This document shows, piece after piece, positions 357-53,192 of a stretch of 64,000 bases of DNA; the stretch's first letter is position 1; every line of letters begins with the position of its first letter. The position numbers and the translations under genes are program-made. The notes under the pieces are model-generated. The model did no database searches. It was not told where the DNA came from and worked only from the letters and a program-made list of their open reading frames with translations. Source of the stretch: Bugula neritina (Eukaryota > Animalia > Bryozoa); assembly GCA_964035545.1 (NCBI GenBank), contig OZ037766.1, forward strand, positions 2,232,001 through 2,296,000, written 5' to 3'.

Positions 357-520
357 ACTCACACAAGTTTATATAAGTGGCTATCACTGTGGGAACCCTG
401 ATGGAAAGGGTTTTTGTTAAAGCGGGCTAAGGACTTATTTAAATGAGGTAGAAAAGCAATTATGACTGGATGCTCTTCCTAACATCACCAATAACCCCTA
501 GACCGGCCACAGCTGCTCCC
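357..520 (-). mobile_element. tRNA-derived SINE, copy 1 (internally deleted head)
   Basis: Clear match to copies at 27084, 50488 and 53827 (gggtttttgttaaagcggg...gactggatgctcttcctaacatcacc...acagctgctccc); the B-box segment is missing. Confidence 0.85.
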
Positions 521-15100: not shown

Positions 15101-16690
15101 ACTAAGGATGTGTTTATAACACTACATTCATTAATGTTACTGTATATCTGTTAAATGCCAACTTATTTTGATAGTATATAATGTTTCTCTACACATATTC
15201 AAAGTCTATTAGATATTGTTATTTTTTGATGTAGCAACCACTACCTGGCAACACCTAGTTGTATTGTTTTGTTTCCATGGTTACCACTATATAATTAGCT
15301 TCAATTGTTCAACTTCTAGCATCACTTTTTCTGTAGATACTAAATGAAAAACTGAATTTTCGTGAAACGGCCAAGCCAAAAGTTGGAAGTCGCGACAACA
15401 TCGGCTATATCCCGGGAGGAGGAGATGTCAAGGTAAAGTGTGACTTCACAGAATCTATTAATAACCAGCTGTCTTTATTAATAGCTGAAAGTTGATTGCT
15501 ATCACCTTCTCTCTTCACACGAGTAACAATCTAGTCACAAGAAATGCTTGAACTTTTGTCTTACACTATTTTGCTGCTAACCATGTTTTCTACTTACTCT
15601 AACACTCACAGTGTGCATATTGCAGATTGAATATCAAGTTGTCTCCCCTCGCTCTGATTTCCTTTCCGGACTGTCCAACACCAAACCTGTAAGTTGCAGT
15701 CAAAACCAACTCTATTTTTGTTTTTCAGCAACTTTTCAGTGACTTTATACTTGATGATGAAACATACTACACAGAGGAGCAAATTTTTGTAAACAAGCCA
15801 ATAACTTCTTTGTGAATGAAAATGCGGGAGATTTTTTTCTAGAATTTGTTAAATAAAAAAATTAAATTGAAGTTTCACCGCTGCGCATATGTGTGTCATT
15901 AGAAAGCCAACATTTACATAATCTAACAATGCAGAGAGTTAAGTGCGCTAGAATAATGTATAACATAGAAAGACAATAGTGTGAGAGATACTGTATAACT
16001 TATCATAATCTGCCTTTTGTTGTTGGATATATTTTTATATGAACATCGTCTTTGAATGACTACTACACAATGTAAATGTAACTCTTGGTTTTTCGTAACC
16101 AAAAACTCTTCATCAAAATGTTTCTAAGTTTGTGTCCAGTTAATAGTTGTGCACTCACCGCTAGCAAATAATGAGCCTTGAAAAATTCTGAAATTAGTTC
16201 TGAAATATTCACTATAATATTGCAGCTAAATGTAATTTTATAGTCAAATGTAATATATTATATTATTTATTATTTAACACAAAAAACATCTGCTGTGAAA
16301 ATCTAAAATTTTGATCAACTAAATTTACTTTATTGAAAGCAGCATTTAGCTTTATATACTAAAATAATAACGTCAGCAGTTTTCAAATGACATCGTAGTT
16401 GATAAAAGGGTTGAGGTAATAAGCACAGACGCCACCATCCAGCTTTCTTACTGATATTTAACTGTTTTGTTTTTAATTTTCAGTATTTTTATGTGAAACT
16501 GAACAATAAAATGACTATGCTTTAGGGGAGAAGAAATAGCACTAGCAGCAGCACAAGCAGCGGGCCCCAGTTGCTCCAAGACGTGTCTGCCGCGGCTAAT
16601 GGAGCTAGTCATGTGACAGGTAATGACCTTGACATTGGTCATATGACCGGAGCTGATGAATCAGTCCCTTACCTGCAGAGTGATCTATAA
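3182..16690 (+). CDS. tau: Tau/MAP2/MAP4-family microtubule-associated protein with 13 tubulin-binding repeats (~571-578 aa)
   Basis: Phase-consistent exons: 3182-3223 (uncertain; alternative ATG at 8000), 8021-8174, 9490-9608, 10457-10546, 10808-10897, 11036-11125, 11703-11792, 11943-12032, 12721-12810, 13031-13120, 13678-13767, 14275-14488, 14873-15036, 15337-15432, 15626-15688, 16526-16690 (TAA). Repeats such as VESHKLDFKDKAKPKIGSLEKASYTPGGGNVK and IETHKLEFKEKASPRIGSLEKASHSPGGG carry KxGS and PGGG motifs. The C-terminus (VVSPR...LSN...SSGPQL...DVSA) resembles the tau tail. Probable non-coding exon ending 1447; AATAAA 17478. Confidence 0.92.
3276..3394. repeat. 17-bp minisatellite (cttgtcatgtgacttac) x7
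   Basis: Seven consecutive near-perfect units read directly; each contains GTCATGTGAC. Confidence 0.95.
7170..7420 (-). mobile_element. Degenerate SINE-like element (second family)
   Basis: Minus strand begins with an A-box-like TGGTTCAGTGGTTAGAA; higher GC than the intron background; a faintly similar segment lies near 3690-3840. Confidence 0.3.
9612..9900. repeat. (TGAG)n microsatellite, degenerating 3'
   Basis: Pure gagt tetramer array ~9625-9789 directly after the exon 9490-9608 donor; degenerate copies continue to ~10060. Confidence 0.97.
11143..11223. repeat. ~20-bp tandem repeat (gacagagatagtctgagtga) x3-4
   Basis: Direct reading; intronic. Confidence 0.85.
15231..15284. promoter_or_regulatory. 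Putative RFX X-box cluster
   Basis: GTTTCCATGGTTAC at 15271-15284 (reverse complement GTAACCATGGAAAC) fits the X-box consensus; half-sites TAGCAAC (15232) and TGGCAAC (15246) lie within 40 bp. Confidence 0.4.
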
Positions 16691-22427: not shown

Positions 22428-23843
22428 CTCATAGCCCTGATTACTAACAGATATCCTAATAACTCATTGGAACTTTGCAAATTTATATTTCTCAATAGAA
22501 AAACTTGAATGTAGCTGCAACTAAAAATGAAATTTTATTGTTTCCTGCTAACAATTTATTCTTCAAACTCTGTTTACCTTCTAGTTGCTGCCTGCTAAAA
22601 ATTAAACTATCTGAACAGCTAACTAAATCTATACTATGTGATCTATAATACATTATTTCTTCAAATTTTTTTCAACAAACTACTTCCTTGCTTATCTAAT
22701 TTTTATGCTCAACAAAGCAAAAAATGTTCGCATTAAATAAAACATATATGTCTATATACGAACCACCAGCAGTGCGACCATTTTGTGTAAAAACAAACTT
22801 AATGCATTGCAAACTCAGTTTTGGAATTATTATGAAAAAGCTCAAATTGTTTACAATATGTTATAACAGTATTAGTAGACTATGCATCTTGAACAACATG
22901 AGTATAAGTACATATGTACTGTAGCAATATTTAAGCAATCTGAAGTTAAATAACATAATGTCCAACCCAGAATAATTTCAAGCCAAGATATATTTGATGT
23001 CATTAGGATAATGGCCTCTGTCTAGGCTATAGCTCATAGTTTATTGCAAATTTATTCAAATCTGAAAAATATAACTGCCAAATTCTCTGCTTATTATAGT
23101 CTGGAAAATAAACTACAATTTCTTTTTTAAAACTTGGCAATATTAGTATTGAAACAATACGTACATGAATATTTTATTTATAGAAATCCTTGGCTTTTAT
23201 TTAATTTAGTTTTAAAAAATATTGTTGCTTAACTAAACTTTGAGACCAATGCTTTTAACAATTTCTCAATACTTTTGCTATAACTGTTTATGCTGATTAC
23301 TAGAATTATTTATTATCGCCCTTAAAAATTACCATGCAGATAATATCTTTACTTTACTTTCCATGATAAAATGCACTCGCACTGTGTATATTCTATAGTA
23401 AGAGTACATTATAGGTTTAGACAGTACAAGCTATAAATAATGATCAGTTGACTAAATTATTAATGGTTATATATTCTCTGTTGGTTACGTTAATGACTTG
23501 GTATTACCAAAGAGTGCATCTCTACTTTTCAATGTAATATATATATATATATATAATCTCATTATAAAGCTAATTTATTGTGAAAATATCTGACATGCAT
23601 GACTGACATAAATTATTCTATATTCAAAAAAAAATTTCGAAATATAAACATTAAACGAATATGTTGATGGTTCTGTCATTTATATAATTGAATGCAGAAT
23701 AAATTAAAATTGTTCAATTTGTGGGCACAGCTAGTGGGAGGCAACATTGATTTATAATCATTTTTTTAAACTTCATCCAATTAAATCTTGGTTTTTTCCA
23801 AGTCCAACTTAAAAACAAAATGCTGTAAATAATACACAGACAT

Positions 23844-24030
23844 CTAGTGGGCGTGGTTTATGAGCCATATATAATAAACCCGCTGCTATACTTTGCTTGT
23901 TTTCATTACCAAAAAGTGTTGGAACCTGCCTTATGTAGAAGTCCTGCATTCATATAAAATACATCGCCAACTATAGAACGCACTTCAAGTGTTTTCACAG
24001 ATAAGAACCAAACTGAAACTGCAAGTAAGT
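23844..24030 (+). promoter_or_regulatory. Core promoter and non-coding exon 1 of peptide P1
   Basis: GC box TGGGCGTGG, TATATAA at ~23868, exon ending aaactgaaactgcaa|GTAAGT (24024); homologous to the P5 promoter/exon 1 at 35859-35945. Confidence 0.65.
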
Positions 24031-24838
24031 GAAAAATTATTATATATTATATATTATGTTGCATTATATATTATTATATATATTGGATATATTTTCATCT
24101 ATTATATTATATAATGTATTATATTGCTGTTCGGTTTAGATTTCATTTTGAGCTTGAATAAAATTATTGCATCACATCAAACACATTATTTAATCAATCA
24201 ATTCAAGCTTCAAATATTAGCCTACTTCACAAAAGCACCATGAAACTTTTAAAAATAAGCTAAAGTACTATAACTATAATGTATATTATAGCTAGCAATT
24301 TTAAGCACTGAACAATACACATATGTTTATTCTCATAAAGTTATAAAGTATATATAATATATATAGCTATTTTATTGAAAATAATAAAACCATAATACAT
24401 CACACATATTGTAGCATTGTGATTTCACATGGATATACATGCATAATATAGCTCGTAATCTTGGTACACAGATATTGCTTGGTTTATTCCCATTATATCT
24501 ACTGCATATTACAAAATATTCTATACACTCTATAAAATTTATGTTGGCAGAAACATTTATTATATTTTAAAGAATCATATTTGTTCATGTTAGGTTACTT
24601 TGGTTCTTTACACTTTTTGTAAACAAAGACTATAATAGCTGAATATATAAAAAGAAATTCAAAGATTTTCAAGGGAATTAGAGTAAATTAACATCTGCAC
24701 AACTACATGATATTTTGTATATCTTAAACATATAAATAGTGTATAAAAAGTGACATTGCAATACTAAAGTTATGTTGGAATTGTAATTTAATCCAAGAAA
24801 TATAATAATATTTCAGACCTTTTATATTTACAGAAAAG

Positions 24839-24991
24839 ATGAGGATCCTGAATGCAAATCTGATTCAGCTGCTAGCCGTGGTACTTCTGGCTCTGACAAC
24901 CTTCGCTGCTGGGAGACAAGCTGGGGCCCCTAACCAAGTGTGTAGGTTTGTACCAGAAAAAGGAAGAATGATTTGCACAAATGGTAATTGA
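24839..24991 (+). CDS. Secreted peptide P1 (50 aa, 2 Cys): MRILNANLIQLLAVVLLALTTFAAGRQAGAPNQVCRFVPEKGRMICTNGN
   Basis: Below the ORF-track length cut-off; translated by hand. Signal peptide resembles P2/P5; VCR...IC aligns to the last two Cys of paralogues; acceptor tttacag 5 nt before ATG; AATAAA 25089. Confidence 0.8.
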   Translation: MRILNANLIQLLAVVLLALTTFAAGRQAGAPNQVCRFVPEKGRMICTNGN

Positions 24992-26706
24992 CAGCAGCTG
25001 ATGAAAGCATACATTCACAACTATTTAGCTTCGTACTTCTCAGAAAATTTTACTAGAAGAAAATTACTTGCAATGTATTTTCTTATGTAATAAAGCTTGA
25101 TAATAAAAGAGATCAATGTATAGTTGATTTTATAGCAGCTAGAACTTTTCTTATACAATAAACGCGTACTTTTTTAACTAAATACCTAATTCGGTACTAT
25201 GAAAACTACATACAATACTTCATTTTTGGGATAACTATAATATATGCAGTATTTTATTATTGAGAGACTTTTGAAACTTATACTAATTATTTCTATGATT
25301 TTATTTGAAAGCAATGCATATGATGCATTGAGCCAAAACAGCAATTCTTTTGCTATAACAAGATTTTAATATTCGCTTTTAGGAATTAGTATTTAAGAAC
25401 GTCATGACGTATTCCTTGCTTAATCTTTATGTCTATTTTTAATAGGTAGCTTTTAAATGAAGTAGAATTTTAAATAATATTTATTAAATTTAGTATTTAG
25501 TCAAACTGAAAAATATAAAATAATTTTACAGCTATAAGCTCCCTTAACAACTACATTAAGTCAAAATGTGAATGAAAAAAGCAAGAGTTTATACGTGAGC
25601 AAAACGTTATCAATATTAACTCAAGTGTTGAAGAGTTGTCTCTACATGAACAGAATATATTGATGACGTATTACTCTACGTAGGCTATTATTAGATGTCA
25701 CAACTCTTCAAGGAAACAGGCTGAGTATGATATGAGTCGGGCATTTTGATTGGCTAATGATCCAGCTGTTTAAGTTGCATATAATAATATTACAAAGAGT
25801 GAAAGATAAAAATAACAATTGCGTCACAACAGATAAAATTATCATATTGGGTTGAGTTTCATTAGTTGTGCAACAATTTATCAGAGATTTATAAAAACTT
25901 TACGTTTTTTGCAAAATATTTTAAAGTGATATGATTGGTCTATCAACGGGAAACTACATTGTTATTATTATCATAAGTTAGCTATATACTTGCTATTCAC
26001 AGTATATATAAGCTATTATAAACACGTGTGAATACATACATAGGACATCAGGTTGATCTTATCACTACTACCAGCACACTGTCAAATTGACTCCTATTAT
26101 ACGTCCGTGACTTGAGCAAGCTAACTCAGGTAATCATAGCTTTGTTATTTTTTCGTTTTACTGTTTGTTTGCTGTAATGTGGGGTATTTTTAGGCACCAA
26201 AAAGCAGCTACAATAAATATATGTACTTTGTAGGATGCAGCAATTTAGTTTTTGATTTGTCAATATTTTGTAAACTGAGTAACGTTTTCAGCTGTGAAAC
26301 TTGTAATAATAATAATTTTTGACTATTTAGCACTCTAGAATCACGTGCCAATATTGTGCATTATCTAATAATATATCTATTTGTCTTTATATACTACTAT
26401 AAGCATTTTATAGTATCACTGAATTGGTGTGATGTTTGATGTGTAGTATAATATGATATTAAAAGCGCAAATATTATAAATATACAGCATTATCATCTTA
26501 TTCAGAGTATATTATAATATTATAGAGAAACTTTGAATGTATTTCTAGTTAGACATTCATTAGATAAAAGCATTAATAGAATTAATAGAAATGTTTCAAC
26601 ACTTAGGTCTAATATAGCTATTATAAATGTACAAAATTTAGTTTATTCAGAAGGCAGCACATTATAGAGTGTATTTATTATACTGGTTCTATATTATAGC
26701 TATAAT

Positions 26707-26892
26707 ATGAAGATTGCGAACTTTCCTATGCTGCAAATGGTTGCCATACTGCTGCTGTCACTGATAGCGTTTGCTGCCGCTGGACTCAGACCATGTTACA
26801 CTGATGACGACTGTGACCCCCCTATGGATGTGTGCAGAGAAATTTCGTTTGGAGGTGGTTTCGTGAAGGTGTGCCAGTATAGCGATGAGTAA
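26707..26892 (+). CDS. Secreted Cys-rich peptide P2 (61 aa; CYTDDDC-x6-C-x12-C)
   Basis: Hydrophobic signal ending AFAAA/G; 4 Cys; TATA ~26003, UTR exon donor at 26129, acceptor at 26699, AATAAA 27022. Confidence 0.88.
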   Translation: MKIANFPMLQMVAILLLSLIAFAAAGLRPCYTDDDCDPPMDVCREISFGGGFVKVCQYSDE

Positions 26893-27083
26893 ACTTGTCT
26901 TCAACCCCAGAAACCATCATATCCTAAAACAGTGTTTTTAAAGCCAATTAGTATAAATTTTGATTGCAAATGCAAAACATCTTGTCATAATATCTAGCTT
27001 TTAAAGTTTACAGAAATATTCAATAAAATTGACTAGTAAAGTTACTGCTGCATTTGATCTATGGATCTTTTATAGGTTACCTT

Positions 27084-27294
27084 TCACGCAAGTTTATAGT
27101 CGCCATCCCTGTGAGAAACCCCTGATAGAAAGGGTTTTTGTTAAAGCGGGCCAAGGGCTTATTTAAATGAAGCACAGGAGCAATTATGACTGGATGCTCT
27201 TCCTAACATCACTAATGGCCTTTGTCAGGGCTCGAACCCATAACCTTCGTGTTTACTAGGCAAACGATCTAACCCCTAGACCACAGCTGCTTCC
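27084..27294 (-). mobile_element. tRNA-derived SINE, copy 2
   Basis: Full-length match to copies 3 and 4; degenerate flanking direct repeat (cttttataggtta / cttatataagtta). Confidence 0.9.
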
Positions 27295-29432
27295 TCTTAT
27301 ATAAGTTAACGCACGGCATGAATTATACCCTGTAGATTTGTAAGGCAATGCCGTTATCTCATGCTATATATAGTAGGTATGTATACATAACAAATAAATG
27401 CGTGCAACAGTGGCACAACAGGATATCCAGGAAGCCTTTGACATCATCAATATGATAAATATAGTTGTAAGCGACCAGTGCATAAATATGTTCAACCAAC
27501 CGTGGCATATTATGCCACATATAGCGTGGATTACTAATATAAGTGTATAGAAATTACCATGATTCCATGTCCAGCAGTTTACTCTGAATCCTAAAGTCTA
27601 AACATTGTACTAATGCATAGAAGACTATATTGAAACTATTCAAGGAAAAAGCAAAATGCACATCGGTTTAATTTTGACAACAGTTTTGTATCTGCTTATA
27701 TGACTTCATGCAGCTCAATGCCATTTTTAATCTTGTTTGTGTAAAAGTCATCTAACTTTTCTAGAAAAATTATATTATATTTGGACCACATAACATGCAG
27801 CTTAGCCAATACAATTAATGAACATTACATATTAAACTGATTAATTTGAGTTAGAACCGAACTCAATACAGTAATGTAACTAGTGGCAGTGGCTGAAATT
27901 GTCCATCTGGATTGCTCTCAAATGCTTCAATACTTAATGTCAAGCTACCTATAATAATACCAGCATTCAAGCTGTTAGCATATAATATATAGCATTATAT
28001 GGTTTATAAATTGCTGATTAGTGGTAATTGGTTCCATTTAATGTCTAAACAAAAGAAAGAGTGTTATAAGGAGACATATTTGATAACTTTTATCATGTGT
28101 TGGCTGATAAACATTATTTTACTAGAATATCTTTTATCATTTAGATCTGTGCATAACAAAACAACTAGTAGCAACTATAAGCATACATTAATTTAACATA
28201 TTATTTAACTCCTATTCTTCAGCAAAATGCTTTCATAAAAAGTAAGGCATGTGGCTAAATACATATTGTTTTGTTTCTAATGTTGAGTGTCTGAGTGTAT
28301 GTCAGCTCTACTCTACTATATATATATTTGATTTGTATTTACAGTAGTTTGGTTCTTAAACTGGATTTCAGCTTAAAATTTGATGATTAAGACTTATTTC
28401 TGATCTTGAATCTGTATTAGAAGTTCATTATCTGTTCCAATGCTTGCTTGCTTCAGGCTGTAAGCAATTTGTAGTAATCTACTTCACCGTGTATAGTAAA
28501 TATAGTTTCAGTGCTGAAATTAGTACAAACTTTTAGTTAAATTTAAGGGGCACTGCTGTTAGTAGCTGCATAGAACATTGTGTAAAGCATGATTATAAAA
28601 GTAAAAGCTGTTTTTGCAAAATCACCAACTAATTTTATTGTTTGAAAATAAAATAGCTAACTGCAATGAAGGCAAAAACTTAACAAAATAATTTTCAACA
28701 ACATATAGGCATCAACATTATATAAATTGATTATCAAAAGAAATGCCTTTATGTCGTAAATTCTGCATCCGTCATACCATTATTGCGAGTTGAGCGTCGA
28801 ATCGCTGTAACAAATGGCAAGATAAATTGATTAAAAATATTGCACAAAATGAAAACTAAGAAATAATTTACCAGAAGTACCAATAATCTTTACCAATTTG
28901 CTATGATGTAAAGTTAACTAGAAACATGTAAAACAAAGCATAATATGTTAACATGTATAATGACCTTGAACATTATAACTACTATAACTGCATATAATAG
29001 ATGTTGCAAACATCTGGTATGTTTTCTAACAATTTTAGAAAAAAAATTTTAATGGCTCTGCATTAACTTTGTTATAGAAACTGCCTTTTTTACTATATAT
29101 ATAAAGGCTGTGTTTCACAGTACAGATAATTTAGAAAGTTCAAGTGATTGAACTTTCTACAATCTTCTGTCTGAAAGTTATATTGACTGCATGACCAACT
29201 GTCTCACTCTATATAAACTTATATATTCCATGTCAGAGAAAAACAACAACATTTAAGAAGTTGTTCCCTCTTTTTATTTATAAAGTTTTTGTTAAATTTC
29301 ACAAAATAAATGCGTAGGTTTTTATATATTTGCGATATCTTTGTTGTTGAACACATGTTATTATTGTTTTCAAAGATTTCATGTAAACATGAAGCAAGCA
29401 AAGCAGGGAAACTTATACAACTCTTACATAAC

Positions 29433-29639
29433 TCACCAATTAATGGTTTTTGATGGCAGACAAAAACTTAAAATTTTCCCATCTCGTATGCCTGGGGCTA
29501 GTTGACACGTCCACCAATCAGTGCAGTCCTCATCTGACACACAAGGTCTCAGGGTAAGGGAAACTGAGTTGTGTGCCAGCAACAAAATTGATGCAATTAA
29601 AAGGAGCAACAATGAGGAAAAATAATTTGAAATATTCAT
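29433..29639 (-). CDS. Secreted Cys-rich peptide P3 (68 aa; LRPCVSDEDC-x5-C-x14-C)
   Basis: Signal peptide plus the family Cys frame; duplicate of P4; putative 5'-UTR intron (acceptor 29678, donor 30016). Confidence 0.88.
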   Translation of the reverse strand: MNISNYFSSLLLLLIASILLLAHNSVSLTLRPCVSDEDCTDWWTCQLAPGIRDGKILSFCLPSKTINW

Positions 29640-31342
29640 GTTTATTGTTGCAATGTTTTCCTTAATAAGTATTCACACTATAAAAGCTTAGAATAAAATG
29701 CAGTAACACTTACAAGGTACAAAATAGGTGAAGCATATATAATTATAACTTATCTCTAACTCTTAGGAAGTAACATATGGCAAAGTTTGACGTCATGTGA
29801 TTATTATACTTAAGGATTGGTTAAAATATATACATCAAACCAATAATACAACAGCTTTTATAACATGAGGCAACAAAAATTATTATAGTTGTTTTTTTGA
29901 GCAGTTTTAAAAATATAAAACTTAGAGTTGTCTACTCAAAACATCATTTTAATTTATAGTTTTATTATTGTAATAAACTCATGAAGGGAGTGAAGATTCT
30001 GGCATACATAACTTACAGAAACTATTATTGATACCACATTACTTGCTATAGGTAGTGTATAGTTTTGTTTTACAACAGGTGAGTAAGTCCCCCACGGAAC
30101 AATTATTGTCTACCCTCATTTAGTATAAGATTAGATAGAGTAAACATGCATGCTTTACTCAGTGTCTACTTATACAGGTGATTCGGGAAAATTATTGCTT
30201 TAAGCTAATACGGTTGGATAAGCTATGACAGAGAATAGCAGTAGCATAATAACTATCATATACTGCACAGACTATAGTTATTTACTACAAAGCTTATTTC
30301 TGATCTTAACTCTACGCGAGAAGTTCATTATCTGTTATAATACTTGCTTTAGGCTGTAAAAAATTTAGTAGTCTACTTCGCTGTGATTAGTCAATAAAGT
30401 TTCAGTGCTGAAATTAGTACAACATTTCATTTAAATTTAATTGACACTACTGTTAGCAGCTGGAAAATTGTGTGTATAGCATGATCATAAAAGTAAAAGC
30501 TGTTTTTGCAAAATCGCCAACTAATTTTATTGTGTGAAAATAGAATAGCTAACTGAAAGCAAAAACTTAACTAAATATTTTTCAACAATATATGGGCATC
30601 AACTTTATATAAATTTATCAAAAGAAATACCTTTATGTCGTAAATTCTGCATCCGTCATATCATTATGTTCAATTCTAGCGCCAAGCTGTAACAAATGGT
30701 AAGATAAATTGACTAAAAGTATTGCAGAAAATAAAAAAGACAAAATAATTAGCCATTATTATAGGTGCCGATAATGTTTAGCAAATTGCTACGCTGCATG
30801 TAGCTTCTTCATTGGTTAACTAGACGCATGAGAAACAAAGCATATTAACATATATACTGATGTAATGCCCTTGAACAAGATTCACTATATGCATATATTA
30901 GATATTGCAAATATTTGGTATGCTTTCAAATAATTTTAGAAAAGAAATTTGATCGGCATTAACTTTGTTGAAGAAATTGCCTTTTCTACTATATATAAAG
31001 CATGTGCATTACAATACAAATAATTTAGAAAGTTCAAGTGATTGAACTTTCCAACCTTCTTCTGCTTGAAAGTTATATTGACTAACTAACTGTCTCACTC
31101 CCTGCATAAACTTATATATATTTAGTGTCACAGGAAACAACAACATTCAGGAAGTTGTACCTTGTTTTTATTTAGGAAGTTTTTGTTGAATTTCACAAAA
31201 TATATTCGGATTCCTTCGTAGGTTTTCATTTGATTTCGATAATTTTGTTTTTGAACACATGTTATTATTTTTCTCAAAGATTTCATGTAAACACGAAGCA
31301 AGCAAAGCAGGGAGACCTATACAACTCTTATATAACTCACCA

Positions 31343-31537
31343 TTAAGAGCTTTTTGGTGGCAGACAAACAGTGATGGAACTCCAATCCTCTCTGCCTGGG
31401 ATTGGTTGACACGTCCACCTATCAGAGCAGTCCTCGTCTGACGCACAAGGTCTCAGGGAAACTGAGCTGTGTGCCAGCAACAAAATTGATGCAAATAAAA
31501 TGAGCAACAATGAGGAAAAATGATTTGACATATTCAT
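31343..31537 (-). CDS. Secreted Cys-rich peptide P4 (64 aa; LRPCASDEDC-x5-C-x14-C)
   Basis: As P3; the same candidate UTR splice sites are conserved (acceptor 31576, donor 31942). Confidence 0.88.
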   Translation of the reverse strand: MNMSNHFSSLLLILFASILLLAHSSVSLRPCASDEDCSDRWTCQPIPGREDWSSITVCLPPKSS

Positions 31538-33361
31538 ATCTATTGTTGCAATGTTTTCCTTAATAAGTATTCACACTATAAAAGTTTGTAAGAATTAATA
31601 CAGTAACACTTACAAGATACAAAATAGGTGAAGCATATATAATTATAACGTATCTCTCTAATTCTTGGGAAGTAACATATGGCAAAGTGTGTCGCCATGT
31701 GATTATTATACTTAAGGATTGGTTAAAATATATACATGAAACAAATAATACAACAGCTTTTATAACATGAGGCAACAAAAATTATTATAGTTGTTTTTTA
31801 AACTGTCTTAAAAATATAAGACATTAGAGTTGTCTACTCAGAACACCAGTTAAATCTATAATGTTGTATTAAAGTGGGCAAAGGGAGTATTAGCACATTA
31901 GGTAAAATATTTATTATGTACATTCTGATATATGTAACTTACGGAAATGGATATTGACACCACCTTACTTGTTAGGTAGTGCAGTTTTGTTTTACCACGG
32001 GTGAGTAAATCTTAGTAGCCTATAGCTATTATAGGATTAAATAGAGTAAACATGCATGTTTTACTCAGTGTCTAACTGATATAGGTGATTTGAGAAAATT
32101 TATTGCTTTAAGCTAATACAGTTGGATAAGCTATGACAGAGTTAACAGCAGTAGCATAATAAATATTATACCGCATGGTATATAACTACTTACTACAATA
32201 AATCCAGCTATATATAACATATGACTCTAGCCTGCGAATGGAAATAGCATATATATTTGATAGATTAAAAGTTGCTGCGTTTCATAAACCGCTGGTGTAT
32301 TTAGCTACTATAAGTAGTAATATCTGTGTTAAATCATCAATTAGGTGAGCCTACTTAAAAACAATGTTTAGACAGAGGAGATAACTCTATAGGGATATGC
32401 AGCTACAGCATCAAGGAAATTGTAACTGGTGGTTAAAAACTATATAAGAGATGCAATAATTTCAGGGAATTTTTGACCATTTGGCACTCCATATAATATA
32501 GAACCAGGAAAGTGCAGGTGGAGCATGCATATACTTTTATACAGTGAAAATGCATAATTTTTAATGCTATTGCACCACATGCCATTTTCTAAGGTAATAT
32601 TTAAGACAAAATATGCATTTATTTAACTGAATATGTGCTCTGGTAAAACTAGCTCTGTTCTATTTTGACGTTGCCAGCAGTGCGTCAAGCCTGAAATAAT
32701 AAACAAATATATCTAGTGAGTGAAGAGCAGCGCAATATAATAACTAATTTCACTATTTCATTTGCACTGTATAGAACGCTAAGACTTACCGGCTAATAAA
32801 ATAATTCTTTAATATTAAATTTCTGCATTGCTGCAAATTTTTAGCTGCATGAATCATAAGTTTTTTTGTTTGCTGTATTAATTACTAATAGCCAATAATA
32901 TTTCAACACGCACTGTGTATAAAGACTTTTAACTAGTTTATGTACTCATGCACTGTATTATTTTTGACGAAATTTCAAAATTTTCGAAGATATTGAGACC
33001 AACTGGCTGAATAAAAATTAGTTGAGTACGTTTCAAATTAGCTTACAGTTTTCATTCATTTTTAAACATAAGCATGGCCCAGGATTTCTACCCATAGTTG
33101 TGATAGAGCAGATACAATAATTTATGATTACGTAAAGCCATCACAACTCTCACCCTAACAATACTCTAGGAGTCTCAAGGATATTAAAGCTTCAGCTTGG
33201 ACAGAGATCTACTTTGATGAGCTGATAGAAATACACCCCAGCACAGCCTAACTTGTAAAAACATAAGTGAGAATTATGGGATGTTCTAGTTGTAGAGAGC
33301 TCGCCATGGCTATACATGCCCTAATGCAGCTCTACAGCATTACAGTATTGTTCAGCATAGC

Positions 33362-33830
33362 AAAGGGTTGAGTTCAATTACATGTGAATGTAATTAATTA
33401 CAATTACATGGGCATGTGTCAATTGCGATTACAATTATAATTACAGTTAAAAAGTAATGTAATTATTTATAATCACAATTACAAGGAAATATAATTAATT
33501 ACAATTGCAATTGGTTTGTTTTCATAAGGGATAAATAGAAGTTATGCAATACCACTTCTATAGGGTTCAACTACCAGGGGCAATTCTGACAGTGGTGAAC
33601 CACCTTTGTTATCAACAGCGATAGCATACCACATTCATCTAATTTAAATTTGTTATTTAACAGTAGGCATAGCAGGAAAAGTAAAGTTTTTAAAAGATTT
33701 CAAAGTTTGAAGTAATTGCCATGTAATTATAAAGTAATTGCAAAAATCAATTACATTAAATAAGTAATTAGTTACAATTACAATCAAATTGTTATACATC
33801 AATTACAAATTACATTCAATTACTTGAAAA
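33362..33830. mobile_element. CAATTAC/GTAATT-rich MITE-like repeat
   Basis: Many direct and inverted caattac/gtaatt units at both ends, typical of subterminal repeats of non-autonomous DNA elements. Confidence 0.45.
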
Positions 33831-34649
33831 AATGGAGATGCATGACACGTATCATAAATATATGACACGTGTACTTGTGATATATGCTGGCATCACCCAG
33901 CTAACTGTGGCAGCAGTAGAATTAAATAAAAATAAATAAGAATGATATCTTGCATGTAGAAAAGTTAAAGCATCATTTAAGCATCAAAATGTTTACTGGA
34001 AGTCATAAGTCAATCTTCAAATCTTTAATTGCTATCTTGAATTAAAAATAAAAAATATAAATATTCAAGTTATGCCAAATTTCCAATCTGTTTTACGTGC
34101 CATTTTATATTTGTAGTTTCATGTACAAGAGCTGTTGCCAGAAACACAATTTGAACTTTTGCATGAACATGTTATTTTGCGTGAGTGCAAACAAGTACCT
34201 AGATAAAACATTTGCAAAAGACCTGGTAGCTAGTAGACTACTGTTATAAGAAGTCATATTTGAAGTCAGTAAAATGCTGGCTTTGCACTGATATCTAATA
34301 ACAAATGCGGGTATAGGTGTGCTCCACCCTAGCCCCTCCCTGTTCTTGCATGCTGGCACCCTCACCAATAATAATGACTCATTACATACCCACCAGTCTT
34401 AGTACGTGAAAGAAATCTCAGCTGTCAGCTTGCTGATCAAAAGCACTTGAAACCTTTTGATTAGTGCTGCCACTACTACAATTTAGTCAATCAGCCTGTA
34501 TGGTGATTAATACTTGTTATTCAAAACTTATCCAAGTACAGTGATAGTCCAATTGAATTTCTCATTATCGTCCCAGAGCTCGTAAAATTTTATCCTATAA
34601 ATTATTTTGGAAAGTGGAGTTGAATAATTTTTTAAATCTGATTCTCTAA

Positions 34650-34735
34650 CCCCTTCTCTTAGTACCCCTCTCCCTTTCTCTCTTAGTACCCCTCTCCCTT
34701 TCTCTCTTAGTACCCCTCTCTTTCTCTTCGTACCC
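34650..34735. repeat. 24-bp minisatellite (cttagtacccctctccctttctct) x~3
   Basis: Direct reading. Confidence 0.85.
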
Positions 34736-35858
34736 ATTTTATTCTCTTAATGGGTACCCCATCCTCTTTCTCTCAAGGTACCTCTCTATTTCTCTCGGTG
34801 CTCATGAATTTTGGCTTCAGTTAAGATAGACGACTTCCAGTCTATATAGACCAGCATCAATATGTTCCACTGAGACGACCCCCAACTGATAAGTGTAACT
34901 ATATAATGATCATCTGCAGTGGCCCGAAGTCATTTTGTCCTACTTATAGCTTTTTTCAACAAGAATCATAGCCTAAAATATGTGAACTAAAATTTCACAG
35001 CAAACTCGGTACAATATAGAGCTTTCTTTATAGATATACTTATATAATATATTTATACATAATTCAACTGCCATCCAGAATTATTATTCAGGTGAAATAA
35101 TCCTATATGCTAGCATTAAAAGTCAAGTCAAGACTGCAAATATGTTATTACATGCTCCCTCTGTACATTATTAAGGTCTGAGTATATATTATATACTATA
35201 CATGCATACCATAACTATATAAAGCTAACATAAATAGAAACTTGTTTTACTAAACCTTTCTCAATTTCTACTATCAGTATATTAAATAGCCATGCGTATA
35301 ATGATTATGTTATTACTATACCTATAAAATATGCTAATTTTACTTGATGTATACATTTTCCTGAAGCTGAACAGATCTGACCATATTATCAGATGCAAAA
35401 TGGTATAGCTATAGCATATGTACTATAATATTGACAGCAAATTGTTTTGTTTTACTGTTAACAAGTTAACATACTAGTTACCATGCAGCGTTTAATTTTA
35501 GCCTATAACCAATGTTTAGCAGTAAAACAGTAGAGCATGCAGTATGAGAAAATACTACTCTATTATAGTATAATATATAATGTTCCAAGTATATTATAAT
35601 GTGAAGTATGAGGTAATTGCTTTTCAAACCACAAGCATCACACAAATGCCCCAGGCGCACATGTATTAAAATATAATTTTCAAAGGAGATGCTGTACATA
35701 TAATAAATATTGCATATAACAGTAAATTAGTATGGCACTTAAGGTGGGAGTAATTAAAAATGTAACTTCCAATTTAGGTATCGATATTTTTAAATTCAAC
35801 TTTCAATAAAGATGCTGTACATAATATATATTGCTTAGCAGTAAATTAGTATGACAAT

Positions 35859-35945
35859 TAGTGGGCGTGACTTATAAATCCTGTATATAAGAGCTGCTGC
35901 TTTACCTTCAAATAGAAAGCACAAAAACTGAAACTACATGTAAGT
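35859..35945 (+). promoter_or_regulatory. Core promoter and non-coding exon 1 of peptide P5
   Basis: tagtgggcgtg, TATATAA at ~35884, exon ending aaactgaaactacat|GTAAGT; homologous to the P1 promoter. Confidence 0.65.
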
Positions 35946-36523
35946 AAAAGTTTAAATTACATATTATATTTTATTTTAGATATATTATTATACATATTAT
36001 TATTTAATATATTGCTGTAGGTATTGGTCTGTTTTTGAGCTTAATTATTTAAAATTTTGTACTATAACATTAAATTAATTAATTAATCAAGGTATATTAT
36101 TTTAACTTGAATAAAATACTAATTTCCATGATTCTTATAATACTTCATTGTTTTAATTACAAGCAGCATGATACTGGTACTGGCTGCCGTTCAATAGAAA
36201 TAAAAAATCGGATGTACAAGAAGAATAGAATTAATAACAAAACATAGCAAAGTGCACAAAAATATGTACATAATTACTGTTTATATATTTACTAGATAAT
36301 TTAATATATACTAACCTGTGACATTTGTATATAATATAATAGGAAGACAGGATTTCATATAAACTGCATAATTTGCACAACATATCTTAAAAATAAGTTT
36401 TGATTGCATTTTTAGCTAATGATTATTAGACGAAAACATTGTTGAAAGTTATACACAAAATATATCTTATGCTAAAATATGGCAAGTGTTGTTTGTTTAT
36501 TAATGATTTTGTTTTTAGCTAAA

Positions 36524-36721
36524 ATGAAGATTGCAAACTTTCATCTCTTACTGCAGAAGGTTGTCGTGCTGCTGTTGTGTCTGACAGCAGCTAGCTTTTC
36601 TGCTTCAGGTTACTGTAAATCAGATGCTGACTGCCCCCCTCAGAGACCTAAATGCGTACAAACTCCACGATTTTTTTTTCCTTATCGGAAATTTAGTGTG
36701 TGCAGTAATCCCGGTTATTAG
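36524..36721 (+). CDS. Secreted cationic Cys-rich peptide P5 (65 aa; CKSDADC-x6-C-x15-C)
   Basis: Likely start MKIANF (same as P2) at 36524, 5 nt after acceptor gtttttag; signal peptide; 4 mature Cys; AATAAA 36824. Confidence 0.88.
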   Translation: MKIANFHLLLQKVVVLLLCLTAASFSASGYCKSDADCPPQRPKCVQTPRFFFPYRKFSVCSNPGY

Positions 36722-37275
36722 CATGCGGAACATGTATTCGACAACTCAACTTGGGATTAACCTATAACACTTCCTATAACGCCTTTAAGTAGAAGGAAAA
36801 ATTATTGTGGATATTCCGTTCAAAATAAAAAAATATATTGTTTGTCTTTACTTGAATACAATCGACTAGTTACGTTGTACAACAATATAGATTTGCAGTA
36901 AAACTTTGCTTTTATCTTTCTGAACTAAAAAAAACTTATAAAGCAACGTTTTTGTATATTATTAATTCACAATATACATCAACATAAAATTTCAAGTCAA
37001 GATTTTACAATATGATCTAAAAAGACATTAAAGGTTGACACATATTTAATCAAATAAATAGCCTGTCTTATATAGCTAATACATAGCATTAAATTCAATC
37101 AGCCATAATACATACGTATATAGCACAAATATTTATTATATTAATAGGTCCTTAAAGTATTTTTAGGAGGCATTCTTCAAATGAAGTTAAATAAACTTTG
37201 TAATAAGAATCATAGTTTTATAAGAGCATGTTTTGCACAAAATATTTAATAACTCTCAAAAAACTAATTTGCAGG

Positions 37276-37348
37276 TGGGTGTGGCTAATATGCATGTGGG
37301 TGTGGCTAATATGCATGTGGGTGTGGCTAACATGCATGTGGGTGTGGT
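37276..37348. repeat. 21-bp minisatellite (gtgggtgtggctaatatgcat) x3.5
   Basis: Direct reading. Confidence 0.9.
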
Positions 37349-39772
37349 TATAATAACAGGAAAATAGTTTGATGTATATTTATTTCAACTATTGCAATGT
37401 TTTCAGTAAGCATCTGCACTATATATGAAAGCATAGAACCAAAATTTTATTAAAAGTACAGAGGAAAGCACTGCAACATTACTTTTAATAACAATTATGC
37501 AATAATAAACAACTCGCTAATTTTTATAAAGTACTTCATAGAACACTATTGCTATGATAATGTTAACCTTTTAGATTAACATTATTACTGTCTATTTACA
37601 AAGGTAGTACGAACCTGTTATACCTGTATACATAGTAGCTAAAAAGGAGAAATTTATACGTGTATAAAACATAATTTACACATCATATTTAAAAAAGGTT
37701 TTGATTGCATCTTAGCTAAATATCATTAGACGAACAGAGAAAAGTACTACAACATTAATTTTAATAACAATTATGCACTAATAAACAATTTGCTAATTTT
37801 TATAAAGTATTTCATAGCACACTATTACAATGATAATGTTAAACCTTTAGAGTTTAAATCAACAAAGAATTTGGATAATGACCTTGTGCTTACTTAAATG
37901 CTCTATCCTGTAGACAATGTCTATTCCCTAATAGGTGAAACTGATAAGTATTATGTCATATTAACATAGTAACATATTATTAAAAATTCTATTATTGTTT
38001 TTTTATAGTTGGCTGTATATATACCGTGTTTCTTACAAATATTTTATCTTAATATGTCAATTTAAAGTCATATTTAATATAATATTATATTGACACAAAG
38101 TGTAAATCATGTGACTTTGGCAACAGCTCATGCTTTTGTAGAGCTAAAAGCATATAATGGTATGGAATATAGATAAAAAGCTTTGGCATAGCTTTAACTT
38201 ATATATTTTTGCTCTATATTTTGGAAAAAATGAATTTAGGGGCTGACTTATGATTATATAGGTATAAATTTTGATGCTTGAATGATGTAGAACTTTACTG
38301 CAGACCAGATATATTACATTTTTAATTATACTGCTCTGTGTTGCCATACACGGTATATATCACAAGTGCACGTGTCACATACATAATACTTGTGATATGC
38401 GTCATCTGTCACTAACTACCACTACTGTTATAGTAGGGGACAATGACCTTATGTCAAGGTTATATCTGTGTCAGATGCAGAGGTCATGATAGCGACAGAC
38501 CTTTCATATAGAGGTTGTCGAAAAGTGGATAAGATATTTATAAACTGCTATAACACTTACATAAAACTCTCTATCTCTCTCTCACACACGCACGCACACT
38601 TGCACACACACACTCTCTCTATTTTCCACACATGCACTCTCTTTCTCTTCAGAATCATAGTGATGAGTTTTACTCTGTAGTTTTTCTAACTTTAAAAGGA
38701 AAAATAAACGTAACAGCAAAGTGCTATATTCAGTCAAGTCAAAATACCATACATGTTTTAACAACAATTCTTTTCAACAAGGAAAACTTTTTGGCACTTT
38801 ACAGTTTAGCTTCCTCATGTGATTAATTTTAGTAACTAAAGTGTGAAATTTACCATATAGGAATATTGATTTATCATCTTAAATTGACAGTTTCAAAACC
38901 TGCCTAATATATACAAACAACTAAATATATCTGCTCTATTTGTCTTCATCTTTTTGCTGTGGAAGCTGCAGGTTTGTAAAGCATGTACACACTTCATATT
39001 TAACATTTTATCCTTAAAACTCAACATTATACTATAACAGGGTTTTTTTATACGCTGCATATATAATATTCTATTGTTTAATTGCTAATTAAAATCAAGC
39101 AAAACTTTTGGCAATTTGTATATCATTCTATATATGCAACAGTTAAACAAAATATTGCACAGTATTTATAATTATATAAGCTAGCTATATTATATATGTT
39201 GTCACGTTATATATATCTATAACAGTATAGGGTTGCATATGTTCAGCTTCATTAAAATGTATACATAAATTAAAATTAGCATATTTTATAGGCAATAATA
39301 ACATAATTATTATACACAGCTAGAATATATACTAATTATAGTAGAAAGAGATGAGGGTTTAGTGAAGTACGTTTCTATTTATAGTATTGCTTTATACAAT
39401 TGAACGGTATGTAGTATACATAATACATACTCGCACGTGAATATTAATAAAGGGAGGAGCATATATTATTATTGATAGTAGAAGATTTTCAAACTTGATC
39501 TTTAGTCAAAACTATCAATGCTAACATATAAGAGTCTTACAACAAAATAAGAATTCTTGTATATATGAGTTAATTTTTGTTATGCAAATAATAATTTATA
39601 AGTATCACTGAAGAAAAGGTTTATTGTACTGAGTTTGCTGTGAAGTTTTAGTCAACACAAAATGTTATCTTTATCTTTAAATGCCCATACGTACCTCTGT
39701 TTTTGAAACTGCAATTCAATGGTCTTGTTATATTTGTCATTATATGCATTTCATTCCATTTCATGTTGTAGA

Positions 39773-39943
39773 ATGTCTACTCTGTTACTTCAACTGCTGA
39801 CCATGTTGCTGTCGCTGCTAGTAATGCTAGCTGCTGCCGGACCGATGCTATGTGATACGGATGCTGACTGCAATAACCCAATCTTTGTCTGTAGAGAAAG
39901 AATGATCAACCAGCACTGTCTTGGCATCTGCGTGTTTGGCTAA
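39773..39943 (+). CDS. Secreted Cys-rich peptide P6 (56 aa; 5 mature Cys): MSTLLLQLLTMLLSLLVMLAAAGPMLCDTDADCNNPIFVCRERMINQHCLGICVFG
   Basis: Acceptor ttgtag 1 nt before ATG 39773; signal ending AAAG like P2; family Cys frame; candidate UTR exon donor at 38971. Confidence 0.85.
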   Translation: MSTLLLQLLTMLLSLLVMLAAAGPMLCDTDADCNNPIFVCRERMINQHCLGICVFG

Positions 39944-50487: not shown

Positions 50488-50705
50488 AACTCACGCAAGT
50501 TTATAGTCGCTATCCTTGGGAGAAACCCCTGATAGAAAGGGTTTTTGTTAAAGAGGGCTAAGGACTTATTTAAATGAGGCACAGGAGCAATTATGATTGG
50601 ATGCTCTTCCCAACATCACCAATGCATGGCCTTTGTCAGGGCTCGAACCCATAACCTTCGTGTTTACTAGGCAATTGCTCTAACCCCTATACCACGGCTG
50701 CTCCC
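50488..50705 (-). mobile_element. tRNA-derived SINE, copy 3, with perfect 18-bp target-site duplication
   Basis: tatgctgtgtaaaagata at 50470-50487 and 50706-50723. Confidence 0.95.
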
Positions 50706-50952
50706 TATGCTGTGTAAAAGATATATGTTAAATATAATTTCTGGTAAACTGAGCTAAAGCCAGTAATTGCATATAATAGTTAGCAAACTTTAATGTATCT
50801 ACAATACTGACTTGGTTTAAATTTATCAACTTGAAATAAAATTTCACTCTATTTATTATGCAATACTGCAAATACATATACTTCGATAATTTGGATAAAA
50901 GAGAGAAGTTTATGATATAGTTGGCAGTTTTGCTTTACATGTACGATGCAAA

Positions 50953-51644: not shown

Positions 51645-53192
51645 ATGGAATACAAAATATTGGCACTAGTGTTGGTGCTTTTTGTTGCTCAGTCTTCAGG
51701 ATGTGACTGCAAGAATTCTCATCACCACCACCACCCTCATCACCGTCGCCACTCTCACCACTCCTGTCACACTCATCAACTTCACCGATCTCATCGTTCT
51801 CACACAGAACAAGCTAGGAGACACTATGCCCCACAACCATGGAATGCACCAACAACCACTACAACTAGAAGACCACCACCTACACCACCAAGAACTTGGA
51901 ATCAACCAACTACCACCACCTATCGACCACCAACCACAACCCCTCCTCGCAGATGGAGCTCTACCACCACCACTAGGAGACCAACCACAACACCTCCTCA
52001 GAGATGGAGCTCTACCACCAGAAGACCACCAACTACCAGACCTCCACAAACATGGCGAGTGCAGACAACAACCCACAGACCACAAGTTCACCACAGACGC
52101 CCAGTAACTAATCCCCCAGTAACTACCAGACAAGTTCCAATAACACCAATTCCTCAGCCAGTTCCTAGGTAATAAATGCAAAATAATACACAACAAACTA
52201 GAAATTATGTTTGCAAATATGTATATGGTACTCAAGAGTTATTTATATTGCAGCTTGATGTATTATAACTTAGTGTAACTTTGTTGAACAGCTGGGTTGG
52301 AAGAACAAGTAGAGGACGCCCCGTGATTGGTGTGACCAACCAAGGTCGTCCAATCATAACTGGCTCAGTACCAGCTCCACTTCCTGTCCAGCCGAGACCA
52401 ATTCACCTGCCGAGAATCCCTCAATCAAGTGAGTCTCTGGAAGGCAGCTTTTCTTCTGAGTTCCAAGGAATTGGAGACAGCAGCTCCTTCGACTCTTCTG
52501 CTAACAGCCACTCTTTTGAAGGCAGCGACAGCAGTGGCTCATTTGGCAGCAATTCTGAAGACAGCCATTCCTTTGAAGACAGCCATTCCTTTGAAGACAG
52601 CCATTCCTTTGAAGATAGTCATTCTAGTGAAGCCATCCACTCAAATCCTCACCAGAGGTTTACTGCTAGTAGCGGATCATTTGGAAGTAGTGGTTCCTCT
52701 GAGAACACGTTCCAGCGGCCCATCCAAAGAACTCCACCAGTTAGAATAATCCCAGCAGTAGGACAAAGACCACCACAGATATTCCGAACAAACCAAAGAC
52801 CTCAAATAATACTTCCACGGCAATCAAGTGAAAGCAGCTCAGAAGAAGGGCAGGCTCAAAGAGTTCGGGTGATCCATCCAACCCCGGTCGCACCTCGGCC
52901 GCTTTCTCCACAACCAAACATTCCCAGAGTACAACTCAGCAGACCAAACCTGCAACCACCACGTCAACAGCAACAATTGCCACGTCAACAGCTACCAGGG
53001 CAGCAGCAACAACTACCACGGCAACCTCAGAGAGTGGCTACACTACAAGTTGTTCCCCGGAGACCACAACTTCCTGTGACACCTCAACAGTTCCCGTCAT
53101 TAAGGTTGATTCAACGACCAACCGAATTGATTACCAGAGGCAACAGGGGAGGCTCGTCAGAGGGCAGTGATAGTTCAGGCGGTGATGATTAA
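51645..53192 (+). CDS. Secreted low-complexity modular protein (474 aa): His-rich, W/PT/R repeats, S-x-E acidic and R/P/Q-rich blocks; candidate matrix/adhesive/biomineralisation protein
   Basis: Exons 51645-52168 and 52292-53192 join in phase 2 (AG|C). Signal MEYKILALVLVLFVAQSSG. TATAAAAG 51367, UTR exon donor 51434, 3'-UTR intron 53199-53410, AATAAA 53708 and 53742. Confidence 0.88.
52557..52628 (+). repeat. Coding 18-bp repeat (EDSHSF x3 + EDSHSS)
   Basis: gaagacagccattccttt x3 exact plus one variant. Confidence 0.95.

What the first reader, a model, noticed from the sequence alone, without database searches (positions are those of the whole stretch)
24839..39943. Cluster of six small secreted Cys peptides: candidate undescribed toxin/antimicrobial/symbiosis peptide family
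Seen: six single-coding-exon genes on both strands (P1 24839+, P2 26707+, P3 29639-, P4 31537-, P5 36524+, P6 39773+). Each has a signal peptide, no obvious propeptide and an apparent non-coding exon 1. Five share C-x2-D-x-D-C-x5/6-C-x12-15-C; P1 keeps only the last two Cys. The C3-C4 loop is hypervariable, and hand-counted mature net charge runs from about -5 (P2) to +4 (P5). Established: the spacing is close to the disulfide-directed beta-hairpin (DDH) consensus CX5-19CX2[G/P]X2CX6-19C of spider/scorpion toxins; the CxxDxDC head and anionic-to-cationic spread recall legume nodule Cys-rich (NCR) peptides. Inference: a lineage-specific effector family acting on microbes, symbionts, predators or prey, resembling those classes by convergence.
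Basis: partly seen in the sequence, partly recalled or inferred. Interest (0 to 1): 0.92.

Follow-up and report, generated by a model that had tools for sequence, protein, structure and literature searches.

The report
Fast-evolving secreted peptides of a bryozoan
A moss-animal genome (likely the Bugula neritina complex) holds a cluster of six small genes for likely secreted, cysteine-braced peptides whose predicted hairpin loop changes much faster than the rest of the peptide, so they are likely defence molecules aimed at microbes, and no family of this kind turned up for these animals in my literature searches.

Summary
All six ORFs are at the stated places. Five carry C-x2-D-x-D-C-x5/6-C-x12-15-C, against 0 matches in 100 shuffles. 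A run guessed to be RNA, from a relative about 9-11% diverged, lacks the 570-nt GT-AG intron in front of P2 and starts exactly at P1's acceptor. So P2, and probably P1, are spliced, expressed genes with a non-coding first exon.

The only named relative is a Bugula neritina hypothetical protein (UniRef 'Late nodulin', a sub-threshold Pfam resemblance); four unnamed records are also family members. The C2-C4 region differs much more than the N-terminus in three pairs. In the recent P3/P4 duplicate the loop differs at 17 of 42 bases against 13.5% in non-coding DNA. P5's nearest relative keeps the signal peptide but changes charge from +4 to -5.

Two models give a half-knottin (DDH-like) hairpin, with weak fold scores. 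None of ten meets the strict DDH consensus or the NCR ending, so the likenesses are probably convergent. P1 looks degenerate.

Function is untested. The best reading is diversifying, target-binding host-defence peptides (0.45). NCR-like control of the Endobugula symbiont is the bold reading (0.12).

The parts
23847..24024 (+). P1 predicted promoter (GC box 23847-23855, TATA about 23868) and non-coding exon 1, ending at the GT donor at 24025
   Evidence: Sequence. Homologous to P5's promoter and exon 1; both shared motifs occur only at these two places in the window.
24839..24991 (+). P1 CDS, 50 aa: signal peptide and two Cys; lacks the CxxDxDC head; likely a degenerate member
   Evidence: tblastn to P2, E 0.003. 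An X1 contig starts at 24834, directly after the acceptor AG. Mature dN about equal to dS against X1, with a change in the last Cys codon.
26050..26129 (+). P2 non-coding exon 1 (5' end approximate)
   Evidence: An X1 contig joins this exon to 26700-26702; 52 letters on the shorter side of the joint (tables 5 and 5c).
26130..26699 (+). P2 5'-UTR intron, 570 nt, GT..AG
   Evidence: Absent from the X1 contig; the joint has depth 0 in run X2.
26707..26892 (+). P2 CDS, 61 aa, C-x5-C-x6-C-x12-C, mature charge -5
   Evidence: 82% identical over 92% of its length to B. neritina KAF6018254.1.
28393..32198 (-). Tandem duplication of a 1.9-kb unit (28393-30290 and 30293-32198) holding P3 and P4
   Evidence: BLASTN 79.7% over 1973 columns; 13.7% differences in ungapped columns.
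29433..29639 (-). P3 CDS, 68 aa, C-x5-C-x5-C-x14-C, charge -1
31343..31537 (-). P4 CDS, 64 aa, C-x5-C-x5-C-x14-C, charge -2
35861..35939 (+). P5 predicted promoter (GC box, TATA) and short non-coding exon 1, GT donor at 35940
   Evidence: Homology to P1's; splicing not shown.
36524..36721 (+). P5 CDS, 65 aa, C-x5-C-x6-C-x15-C, charge +4; acceptor AG at 36517-36518
   Evidence: Nearest relative is P0004 (tree support 95/93).
37579..37813 (+). Remnant of a P5-like intron with no coding exon behind it (likely a lost duplicate)
   Evidence: 168 of 220 aligned bases identical, score 128 against a shuffle maximum of 107; BLASTN E 5e-12.
39773..39943 (+). P6 CDS, 56 aa: four-Cys core plus a fifth Cys in the loop; ends in Gly (possible amidation); acceptor AG at 39770-39771
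   Evidence: 82% identical to P0002, which has four Cys and the same terminal Gly.

Best explanation
These are duplicated bryozoan genes, spliced in P2, for likely secreted mini-proteins predicted to fold as a two-disulfide half-knottin that displays a variable beta-hairpin, and they most likely act as host-defence effectors that bind targets on microbes at the colony surface or inside it. Shown: gene cluster, duplication, splicing and expression of the P2 homologue (probably also P1), conserved scaffold, faster change of the C2-C4 region. Predicted: signal-peptide secretion, hairpin fold, C1-C3/C2-C4 pairing. Inferred: diversifying selection from an arms race; action by specific binding rather than by cationic membrane lysis, because 7 of 10 four-Cys members are net anionic; microbes as the target.
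For: Scaffold constant, loops variable. Differences N-terminus to C2 versus C2-C4: 3/36 vs 7/18 (P2/P0001, p 0.011), 2/33 vs 8/18 (P6/P0002, p 0.002), 6/37 vs 12/19 (P3/P4, p 0.0007). P3/P4 loop: 17 of 42 bases differ against 13.5% in non-coding DNA; loop dN 0.70, dS 0.30; 2 of 1583 sliding non-coding windows reach 17. P5 vs P0004: 3 of 22 differences in the signal, 5 of 22 identities after C2, charge +4 vs -5. Birth and death: recent tandem duplicate, degenerate P1, intron remnant. Models: hairpin E41-48/E51-58 in P2 (pLDDT 80) and E18-21/E33-36 in mature P5 (pLDDT 75). 13 of 18 VIA rows for P5 and 7 of 22 for P2 are knottin/ICK peptides (fold labels partly recalled). Small clustered, diversifying Cys-rich secreted families with mixed charge face microbes in legumes (PMC7230169, passages) and aphids (PMC6594739, PMC3574423, start of abstracts).
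Against: No activity, tissue or induction data. Fold scores are weak (best Z 2.9 and 3.5; no Foldseek hit at E<=0.001), and the pairing could not be read from the models. The selection evidence rests on few codons, and the partition was chosen after seeing the alignment. The P3/P4 loop could hide compensating indels, one indel-rich intron window ties it, loop dS is also raised (2.5 changes on 10 sites), and the P3/P4 signal region has 5 non-synonymous and 0 synonymous changes. The excess over neutral in the two presumed orthologue pairs is p 0.002-0.046 and assumes a 9-13% background taken from run X1. The same pattern is typical of toxins, protease inhibitors and gamete-recognition proteins, so it does not name the target (own knowledge). 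Six genes in one window is a small family beside hundreds of NCRs; genome-wide size is unknown.
Confidence: 0.45

Rival explanations
1. Secreted enzyme inhibitors or other non-immune secretion products (gut, cuticle, larval adhesive) whose hairpin is a reactive loop or simply weakly constrained.
For: EETI-II, a tomato knottin peptide and an SLPI WAP domain are among the structural neighbours. Weak CarbpepA_inh hits for P3 and P4 (E 0.016, 0.087). P1 evolves at about neutral rate.
Against: The squash-inhibitor reactive loop lies in the first knottin loop (recalled), which these peptides lack. No conserved reactive residue. The P3/P4 loop exceeds the neutral background, which relaxed constraint alone does not give.
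Confidence: 0.2
2. Deterrent or allelopathic toxins acting on ion channels or receptors of small predators, foulers or competitors.
For: Most fold neighbours are arachnid or anemone ICK toxins. ESM Atlas leads include conotoxin I2 and lycotoxin clusters at 0.81-0.83. Conserved signal with a variable mature part; terminal Gly kept in P6 and P0002.
Against: Atlas scores under 0.9 are leads only, and the fold is shared by non-toxins. No propeptide is evident. No venom apparatus is known in bryozoans (own knowledge); the known larval defence is symbiont-made bryostatin (PMC11480708, passages).
Confidence: 0.15
3. Signals between conspecifics: sperm/egg recognition, larval settlement or kin cues, or allorecognition ligands.
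For: Rapid divergence between sibling lineages with a conserved scaffold. Run X2 shows four half-depth variants in the P1 CDS, all non-synonymous.
Against: 4 of 4 is compatible with neutrality, and P1 looks degenerate. No receptor gene was seen in the cluster. No stage-specific data.
Confidence: 0.15
4. Chance ORFs, or internal exons of a larger protein.
For: The ORFs are short, and none of 8 exact look-ups is in the protein collection.
Against: 5 motif hits against 0 in 100 shuffles; spliced contig for P2; each ORF has its own start, stop and downstream polyA signal; both strands are used; full-length relatives exist.
Confidence: 0.02

Closest known systems
Bugula neritina EB796_023416 / KAF6018254.1 (UniRef A0A7J7IXZ0, 'Late nodulin')
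   Same: Same family; presumed orthologue of P2, 82% identical over 92%.
   Different: Only an automatic record. Its name reflects a sub-threshold Pfam match (18.5 bits against a 30.4 cut-off). It has an 11-residue N-terminal extension and a different hairpin.
Disulfide-directed beta-hairpin (DDH) peptides, and the two-disulfide core of knottins (EETI-II, lambda-MeuKTx-1, Hc3a)
   Same: Four Cys, short turn then beta-hairpin. Model aligns over 28-36 residues at rmsd 1.3-2.8 A in the best rows. The CxxDxDC head matches the second knottin loop.
   Different: Strict consensus C-x4-19-C-x2-(G/P)-x2-C-x4-19-C (PMC3381931, passage) met by 0 of 10; long 12-15-residue hairpin; no third disulfide; no evident propeptide; no significant sequence match (best PDB E 0.19).
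Legume nodule-specific Cys-rich (NCR) peptides, Pfam Nodulin_late PF07127
   Same: Signal peptide, four Cys, CxxDxDC head, anionic-to-cationic spread, small clusters, diversifying selection (PMC7230169, passages).
   Different: Animal host. All Pfam scores are below cut-off (16.8-24.7 bits against 30.4), and most matches stop before the C-terminal part. C3-C4 spacing is 12-15, not 4. Known four-Cys NCRs pair C1-C2/C3-C4 or C1-C4/C2-C3 (PMC8110993, passages).
Aphid bacteriocyte-specific Cys-rich (BCR) peptides
   Same: Orphan secreted Cys-rich peptides in an animal with an inherited bacterial symbiont (PMC3574423, PMC6594739, start of abstracts).
   Different: No sequence or fold match was found; symbiont-tissue expression is what defines BCRs and is untested here.

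Membership tests
DDH peptides | Consensus C-x4-19-C-x2-(G/P)-x2-C-x4-19-C | tested here: not met
   0 of 10 four-Cys sequences match: the C2-C3 loop has 6 residues, or 5 without G/P at position 3 (consensus from PMC3381931).
DDH peptides | Antiparallel beta-hairpin between the third and fourth Cys | tested here: met
   Predicted in both AlphaFold2 models; a prediction, not a solved structure.
DDH peptides | Two disulfides with C1-C3/C2-C4 pairing | tested here: inconclusive
Pairing is inferred from weak alignments to knottins (Z<=3.5). C3 and C4 face each other across the hairpin, so C1-C2/C3-C4 is not excluded.
ICK / knottins | Six Cys forming three knotted disulfides | tested here: not met
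   Four mature Cys (five in P6); ICK consensus.
NCR peptides | Pfam Nodulin_late at the gathering threshold | tested here: not met
   10 of 10 four-Cys sequences score 16.8-24.7 bits against 30.4.
NCR peptides | C-terminal C-x4-C spacing (recalled motif) | tested here: not met
   0 of 10.
NCR peptides | Legume origin and nodule-specific expression | tested here: not met
   Animal genome: B. neritina relative; neighbouring tau/MAP4-like gene with animal best hits.
NCR peptides | NCR-like fold | tested here: inconclusive
   NCR13 matches by sequence only at E 0.5; the fold searches do not settle it.
Symbiosis peptides (NCR/BCR-like role) | Expression in symbiont-housing tissue and an effect on the symbiont | not testable with these tools
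   Only assembled contigs of one mixed run were available.
Venom peptides | Gland expression, delivery system, ion-channel activity | not testable with these tools
   No tissue or activity data.

The most novel reading that the evidence does not exclude
These are a marine-animal counterpart of legume NCRs and aphid BCRs: host peptides secreted into the funicular cords or the larval pallial sinus that select and regulate the bryostatin-making symbiont 'Ca. Endobugula sertula', having reached the CxxDxDC head and mixed charge by convergence from a half-knottin. Their divergence between Bugula sibling species would then track symbiont status.
Probability: 0.12. Interest if true: 0.9.

Novelty: new variant of a known kind. 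Interest (0 to 1): 0.58.

Why it matters
Bryozoan chemical defence is known from small molecules. A 2020 review of the phylum has no occurrence of the word 'peptide' (PMC7230173), and four searches listed no paper whose title or opening abstract describes a bryozoan gene-encoded Cys-rich peptide family. This cluster gives short, synthesisable candidates. They make testable how Bugula manages fouling microbes and its uncultured bryostatin symbiont, which some colonies carry and others lack (PMC4183541). It is also a natural two-disulfide scaffold that tolerates very different 12-15-residue hairpins, and it shows that the UniRef label 'Late nodulin' on a bryozoan protein rests on a sub-threshold resemblance.

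Tried and rejected
No whole genome is held for the window, so family size genome-wide is unknown.

The look-up of sequencing runs listed no holder on record as RNA. X1 is only guessed to be RNA; I take the spliced joint as the sign that it is. X1 has no cover over P3/P4 and low cover over P5 that includes intron; neither is evidence. Contig depths (457-783 at P2, 18 at P1) cannot rank expression.

A metagenome scan (29 of 64 parts scanned, 597 pattern matches) gave one locus, L001. It is a GC-rich bacterial ORF with a chance CDTDADC and was rejected as a relative.

A second profile search returned only the 5 database sequences already in the query, among 2421 candidates. Of 14 HMMER hits in 1.84 billion representatives I read ten (P0001 and P0002; P0003, P0004, P0006, P0008, P0011-P0014 and P0010, less P0005, P0007 and P0009, which were not read). 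P0006, P0010, P0011, P0012 and P0014 are repeat proteins with similar small modules. P0013 is a single four-Cys peptide with a five-residue last loop, left unassigned.

ESM Atlas gave nothing at 0.9 or more. No NCR structure appeared among the VIA rows, which excludes nothing. The tau-exon search did not return a Bugula protein, so it gave neither synteny nor a background divergence. 3' UTRs and most upstream regions of the paralogues align no better than shuffles. The P1 coding exon is not significantly similar to P2 or P5 at DNA level; its kinship rests on protein, promoter and intron similarity. Earlier scan findings: none.

The supplements of PMC4192642 (stage-wise B. neritina expression tables) could not be read and may hold these transcripts. 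Supplements of the two bioRxiv papers were not seen.
Full report
OBSERVATION. The pattern C-x2-D-x-D-C-x5/6-C-x12-15-C occurs 5 times in the window and 0 times in 100 locally shuffled windows. Each ORF begins with a hydrophobic stretch ending in small residues, read as a signal peptide by inspection and hydropathy. P1, P2, P5 and P6 have an AG acceptor 1-7 bases before the ATG, and all six have a polyA signal within about 40-170 bases of the stop. P6 has a fifth Cys. P1 lacks the CxxDxDC head.

ORGANISM. A profile of five peptides found 2 proteins among 396 candidates. One is Bugula neritina EB796_023416 (82% to P2); the other is an unnamed JGI record close to P6. HMMER over 1.84 billion representatives gave 14 hits at E<=0.001. 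The best four (E<=3e-12) are those two plus unnamed P0003 and P0004. P0008 (E 2e-5) has the same architecture and groups with P3/P4 (90/89). A second search with ten sequences added nothing. The window is therefore likely from the B. neritina complex or a close relative; this rests on one named record. The neighbour upstream is a tau/MAP4-like gene. Whether the family reaches beyond Bugula is open.

EXPRESSION AND GENE STRUCTURE. Two runs were listed and laid on 23700-37200. X2 covers all 30 bins like DNA. X1, guessed to be RNA, differs from the window by about 9-11% (34 differences in a contig piece of about 320 letters, 16 in about 190, 12 in about 130). B. neritina sibling species differ by 8-11.5% in COI, a different marker (PMC4183541, passages). 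One X1 contig joins 26101 to 26702 with 30 letters between that match the end of the upstream exon and the first bases after the acceptor. The missing stretch is a 570-nt GT..AG intron, 26130-26699, and X2 has no such joint. Another X1 contig covers P1 from 24834, the first base after its acceptor, and has further letters that do not lie on the intron. So P2's homologue is spliced with a non-coding exon 1, and P1's probably is. P1 and P5 share a GC box, a TATA box, an exon-1 end and intron similarity. P3, P4, P5 and P6 are not shown to be expressed.

EVOLUTION. P3 and P4 sit in a 1.9-kb tandem duplicate whose non-coding DNA differs by 13.5%. Their C3-C4 loop differs at 17 of 42 bases, with dN 0.70 and dS 0.30. 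Only 2 of 1583 sliding non-coding windows reach 17, both at one indel-rich intron spot. In three pairs the C2-C4 region differs more than the N-terminal part: 7/18 vs 3/36, 8/18 vs 2/33, 12/19 vs 6/37. For the two presumed orthologue pairs, 15 of 36 exceeds a neutral expectation at p 0.002-0.046 if the background is 9-13%; that background is borrowed from X1. P0004 carries a read-through of an intron like P5's and groups with P5 (95/93), yet shares 5 of 22 residues after C2 and has charge -5 against +4. Against a clean selection story: few codons, a partition chosen after seeing the data, possible hidden indels, and 5 non-synonymous with 0 synonymous changes in the P3/P4 signal region. P1 against X1 has mature dN 0.19 and dS 0.20 and a change in the last Cys codon, from a truncated table with 9 unplaced gap letters. 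With the intron remnant at 37579-37813, this reads as gene birth and death.

STRUCTURE. AlphaFold2 gives P2 a signal helix, a short helical turn and a hairpin (pLDDT 80, pTM 0.45), and mature P5 the same core (75, 0.43). No Foldseek hit is significant. VIA-align rows are weak (Z<=3.5) but consistent: 13 of 18 for P5 and 7 of 22 for P2 are knottin/ICK peptides such as EETI-II, lambda-MeuKTx-1 and Hc3a (fold labels partly recalled). The CxxDxDC head aligns to the second loop of engineered cystine-knot peptides (E 0.19). I read the scaffold as a knottin without its first disulfide, that is DDH-like with predicted C1-C3/C2-C4 pairing. C3 and C4 face each other across the hairpin, and P1 has lost C1 and C2 together, so C1-C2/C3-C4 remains possible.

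MECHANISM. A rigid, likely protease-resistant scaffold presenting a long variable hairpin is a binding-surface design. Seven of ten four-Cys members are net anionic, one neutral and two cationic, so general membrane lysis in seawater is unlikely except perhaps for P5 (inference). A sessile suspension feeder faces fouling microbes and hosts a bacterial symbiont in funicular cords and the larval pallial sinus (PMC4183541, passage). I commit to host-defence effectors binding microbial targets (0.45, of which symbiont control is 0.12). Rivals are enzyme inhibitors or other secretions (0.2), deterrent toxins (0.15), conspecific signals (0.15) and artefact (0.02). No step from sequence to target is shown.

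COMPARISON. Not a knottin (four Cys). Not DDH by the published consensus (0 of 10; PMC3381931, passage), though predicted to fold like one. Not an NCR: Pfam scores of 16.8-24.7 bits against 30.4, last spacing 12-15, animal host. The NCR likeness in charge spread, clustering and diversification (PMC7230169, passages) is best read as convergence on a common small-peptide motif; unrelated repeat proteins and a bacterial ORF carry it too.

LITERATURE SEEN. First part of the text: PMC7576161. Passages: PMC4942781, PMC7534450, PMC13425148, 10.1101/485722, PMC3694633, PMC3381931, PMC11480708, 10.1101/2025.09.09.675119 (no 'Bugula'), PMC8110993, PMC7230173, PMC4183541, PMC4192642, PMC7230169. Listing and start of abstract only: the BCR papers. 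Searches listed no description of this family; the library lacks most subscription journals, and unread supplements may bear on this.

VERDICT. A real, apparently uncharacterised, fast-diversifying family of secreted-type peptides on a known kind of scaffold, in a phylum for which I found none described.

Noticed in passing
window 14275-15430 (+): Exons of a tau/MAP2/MAP4-like gene with several microtubule-binding repeats (PF00418).
   Followed up: partly
window 51645-53192 (+): Gene for a likely secreted low-complexity protein: signal-like start, His-rich, then Thr/Pro/Arg repeats, then Ser-rich and Gln/Pro-rich parts; no Pfam match for 2 of 2 exons scanned. Possible adhesive, cuticle or mucin-like protein.
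   Followed up: partly
window 55568-56342 (-) and 62535-63414 (-): Two paralogous multi-exon genes sharing a Cys-bearing motif; no convincing Pfam match in 4 ORF pieces.
   Followed up: partly
window 359-492, 27084-27295, 50491-50706, 53826-54040: A dispersed repeat of about 210 bp, 86-91% alike, with very high depth in both runs; SINE-like; one copy sits just behind P2. ARAGORN finds no tRNA gene in the window.
   Followed up: partly
window 24903-24968: Run X2 shows four half-depth variants in the P1 CDS, all non-synonymous and all shared with run X1: an old allele or a second P1 copy.
   Followed up: partly
window 34986-35376 / 39237-39652 and 33842-34159 / 38097-38396: Two pairs of inverted, diverged (66-71%) non-coding copies inside the cluster; old mobile elements or traces of the inversions behind the mixed gene orientation.
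   Followed up: no
window 29678-29715 (-) and 31576-31614 (-), approximate: Upstream of P3 and P4 a GTAAGT..AG stretch of only about 37-38 nt could be a very short 5'-UTR intron; a CRE-like palindrome lies at 29788-29795.
   Followed up: no
P0013 (unnamed ENA record): A 60-aa signal-plus-four-Cys peptide with C-x5-C-x5-C-x5-C spacing; closer to the classic DDH spacing; relation to this family unresolved.
   Followed up: no
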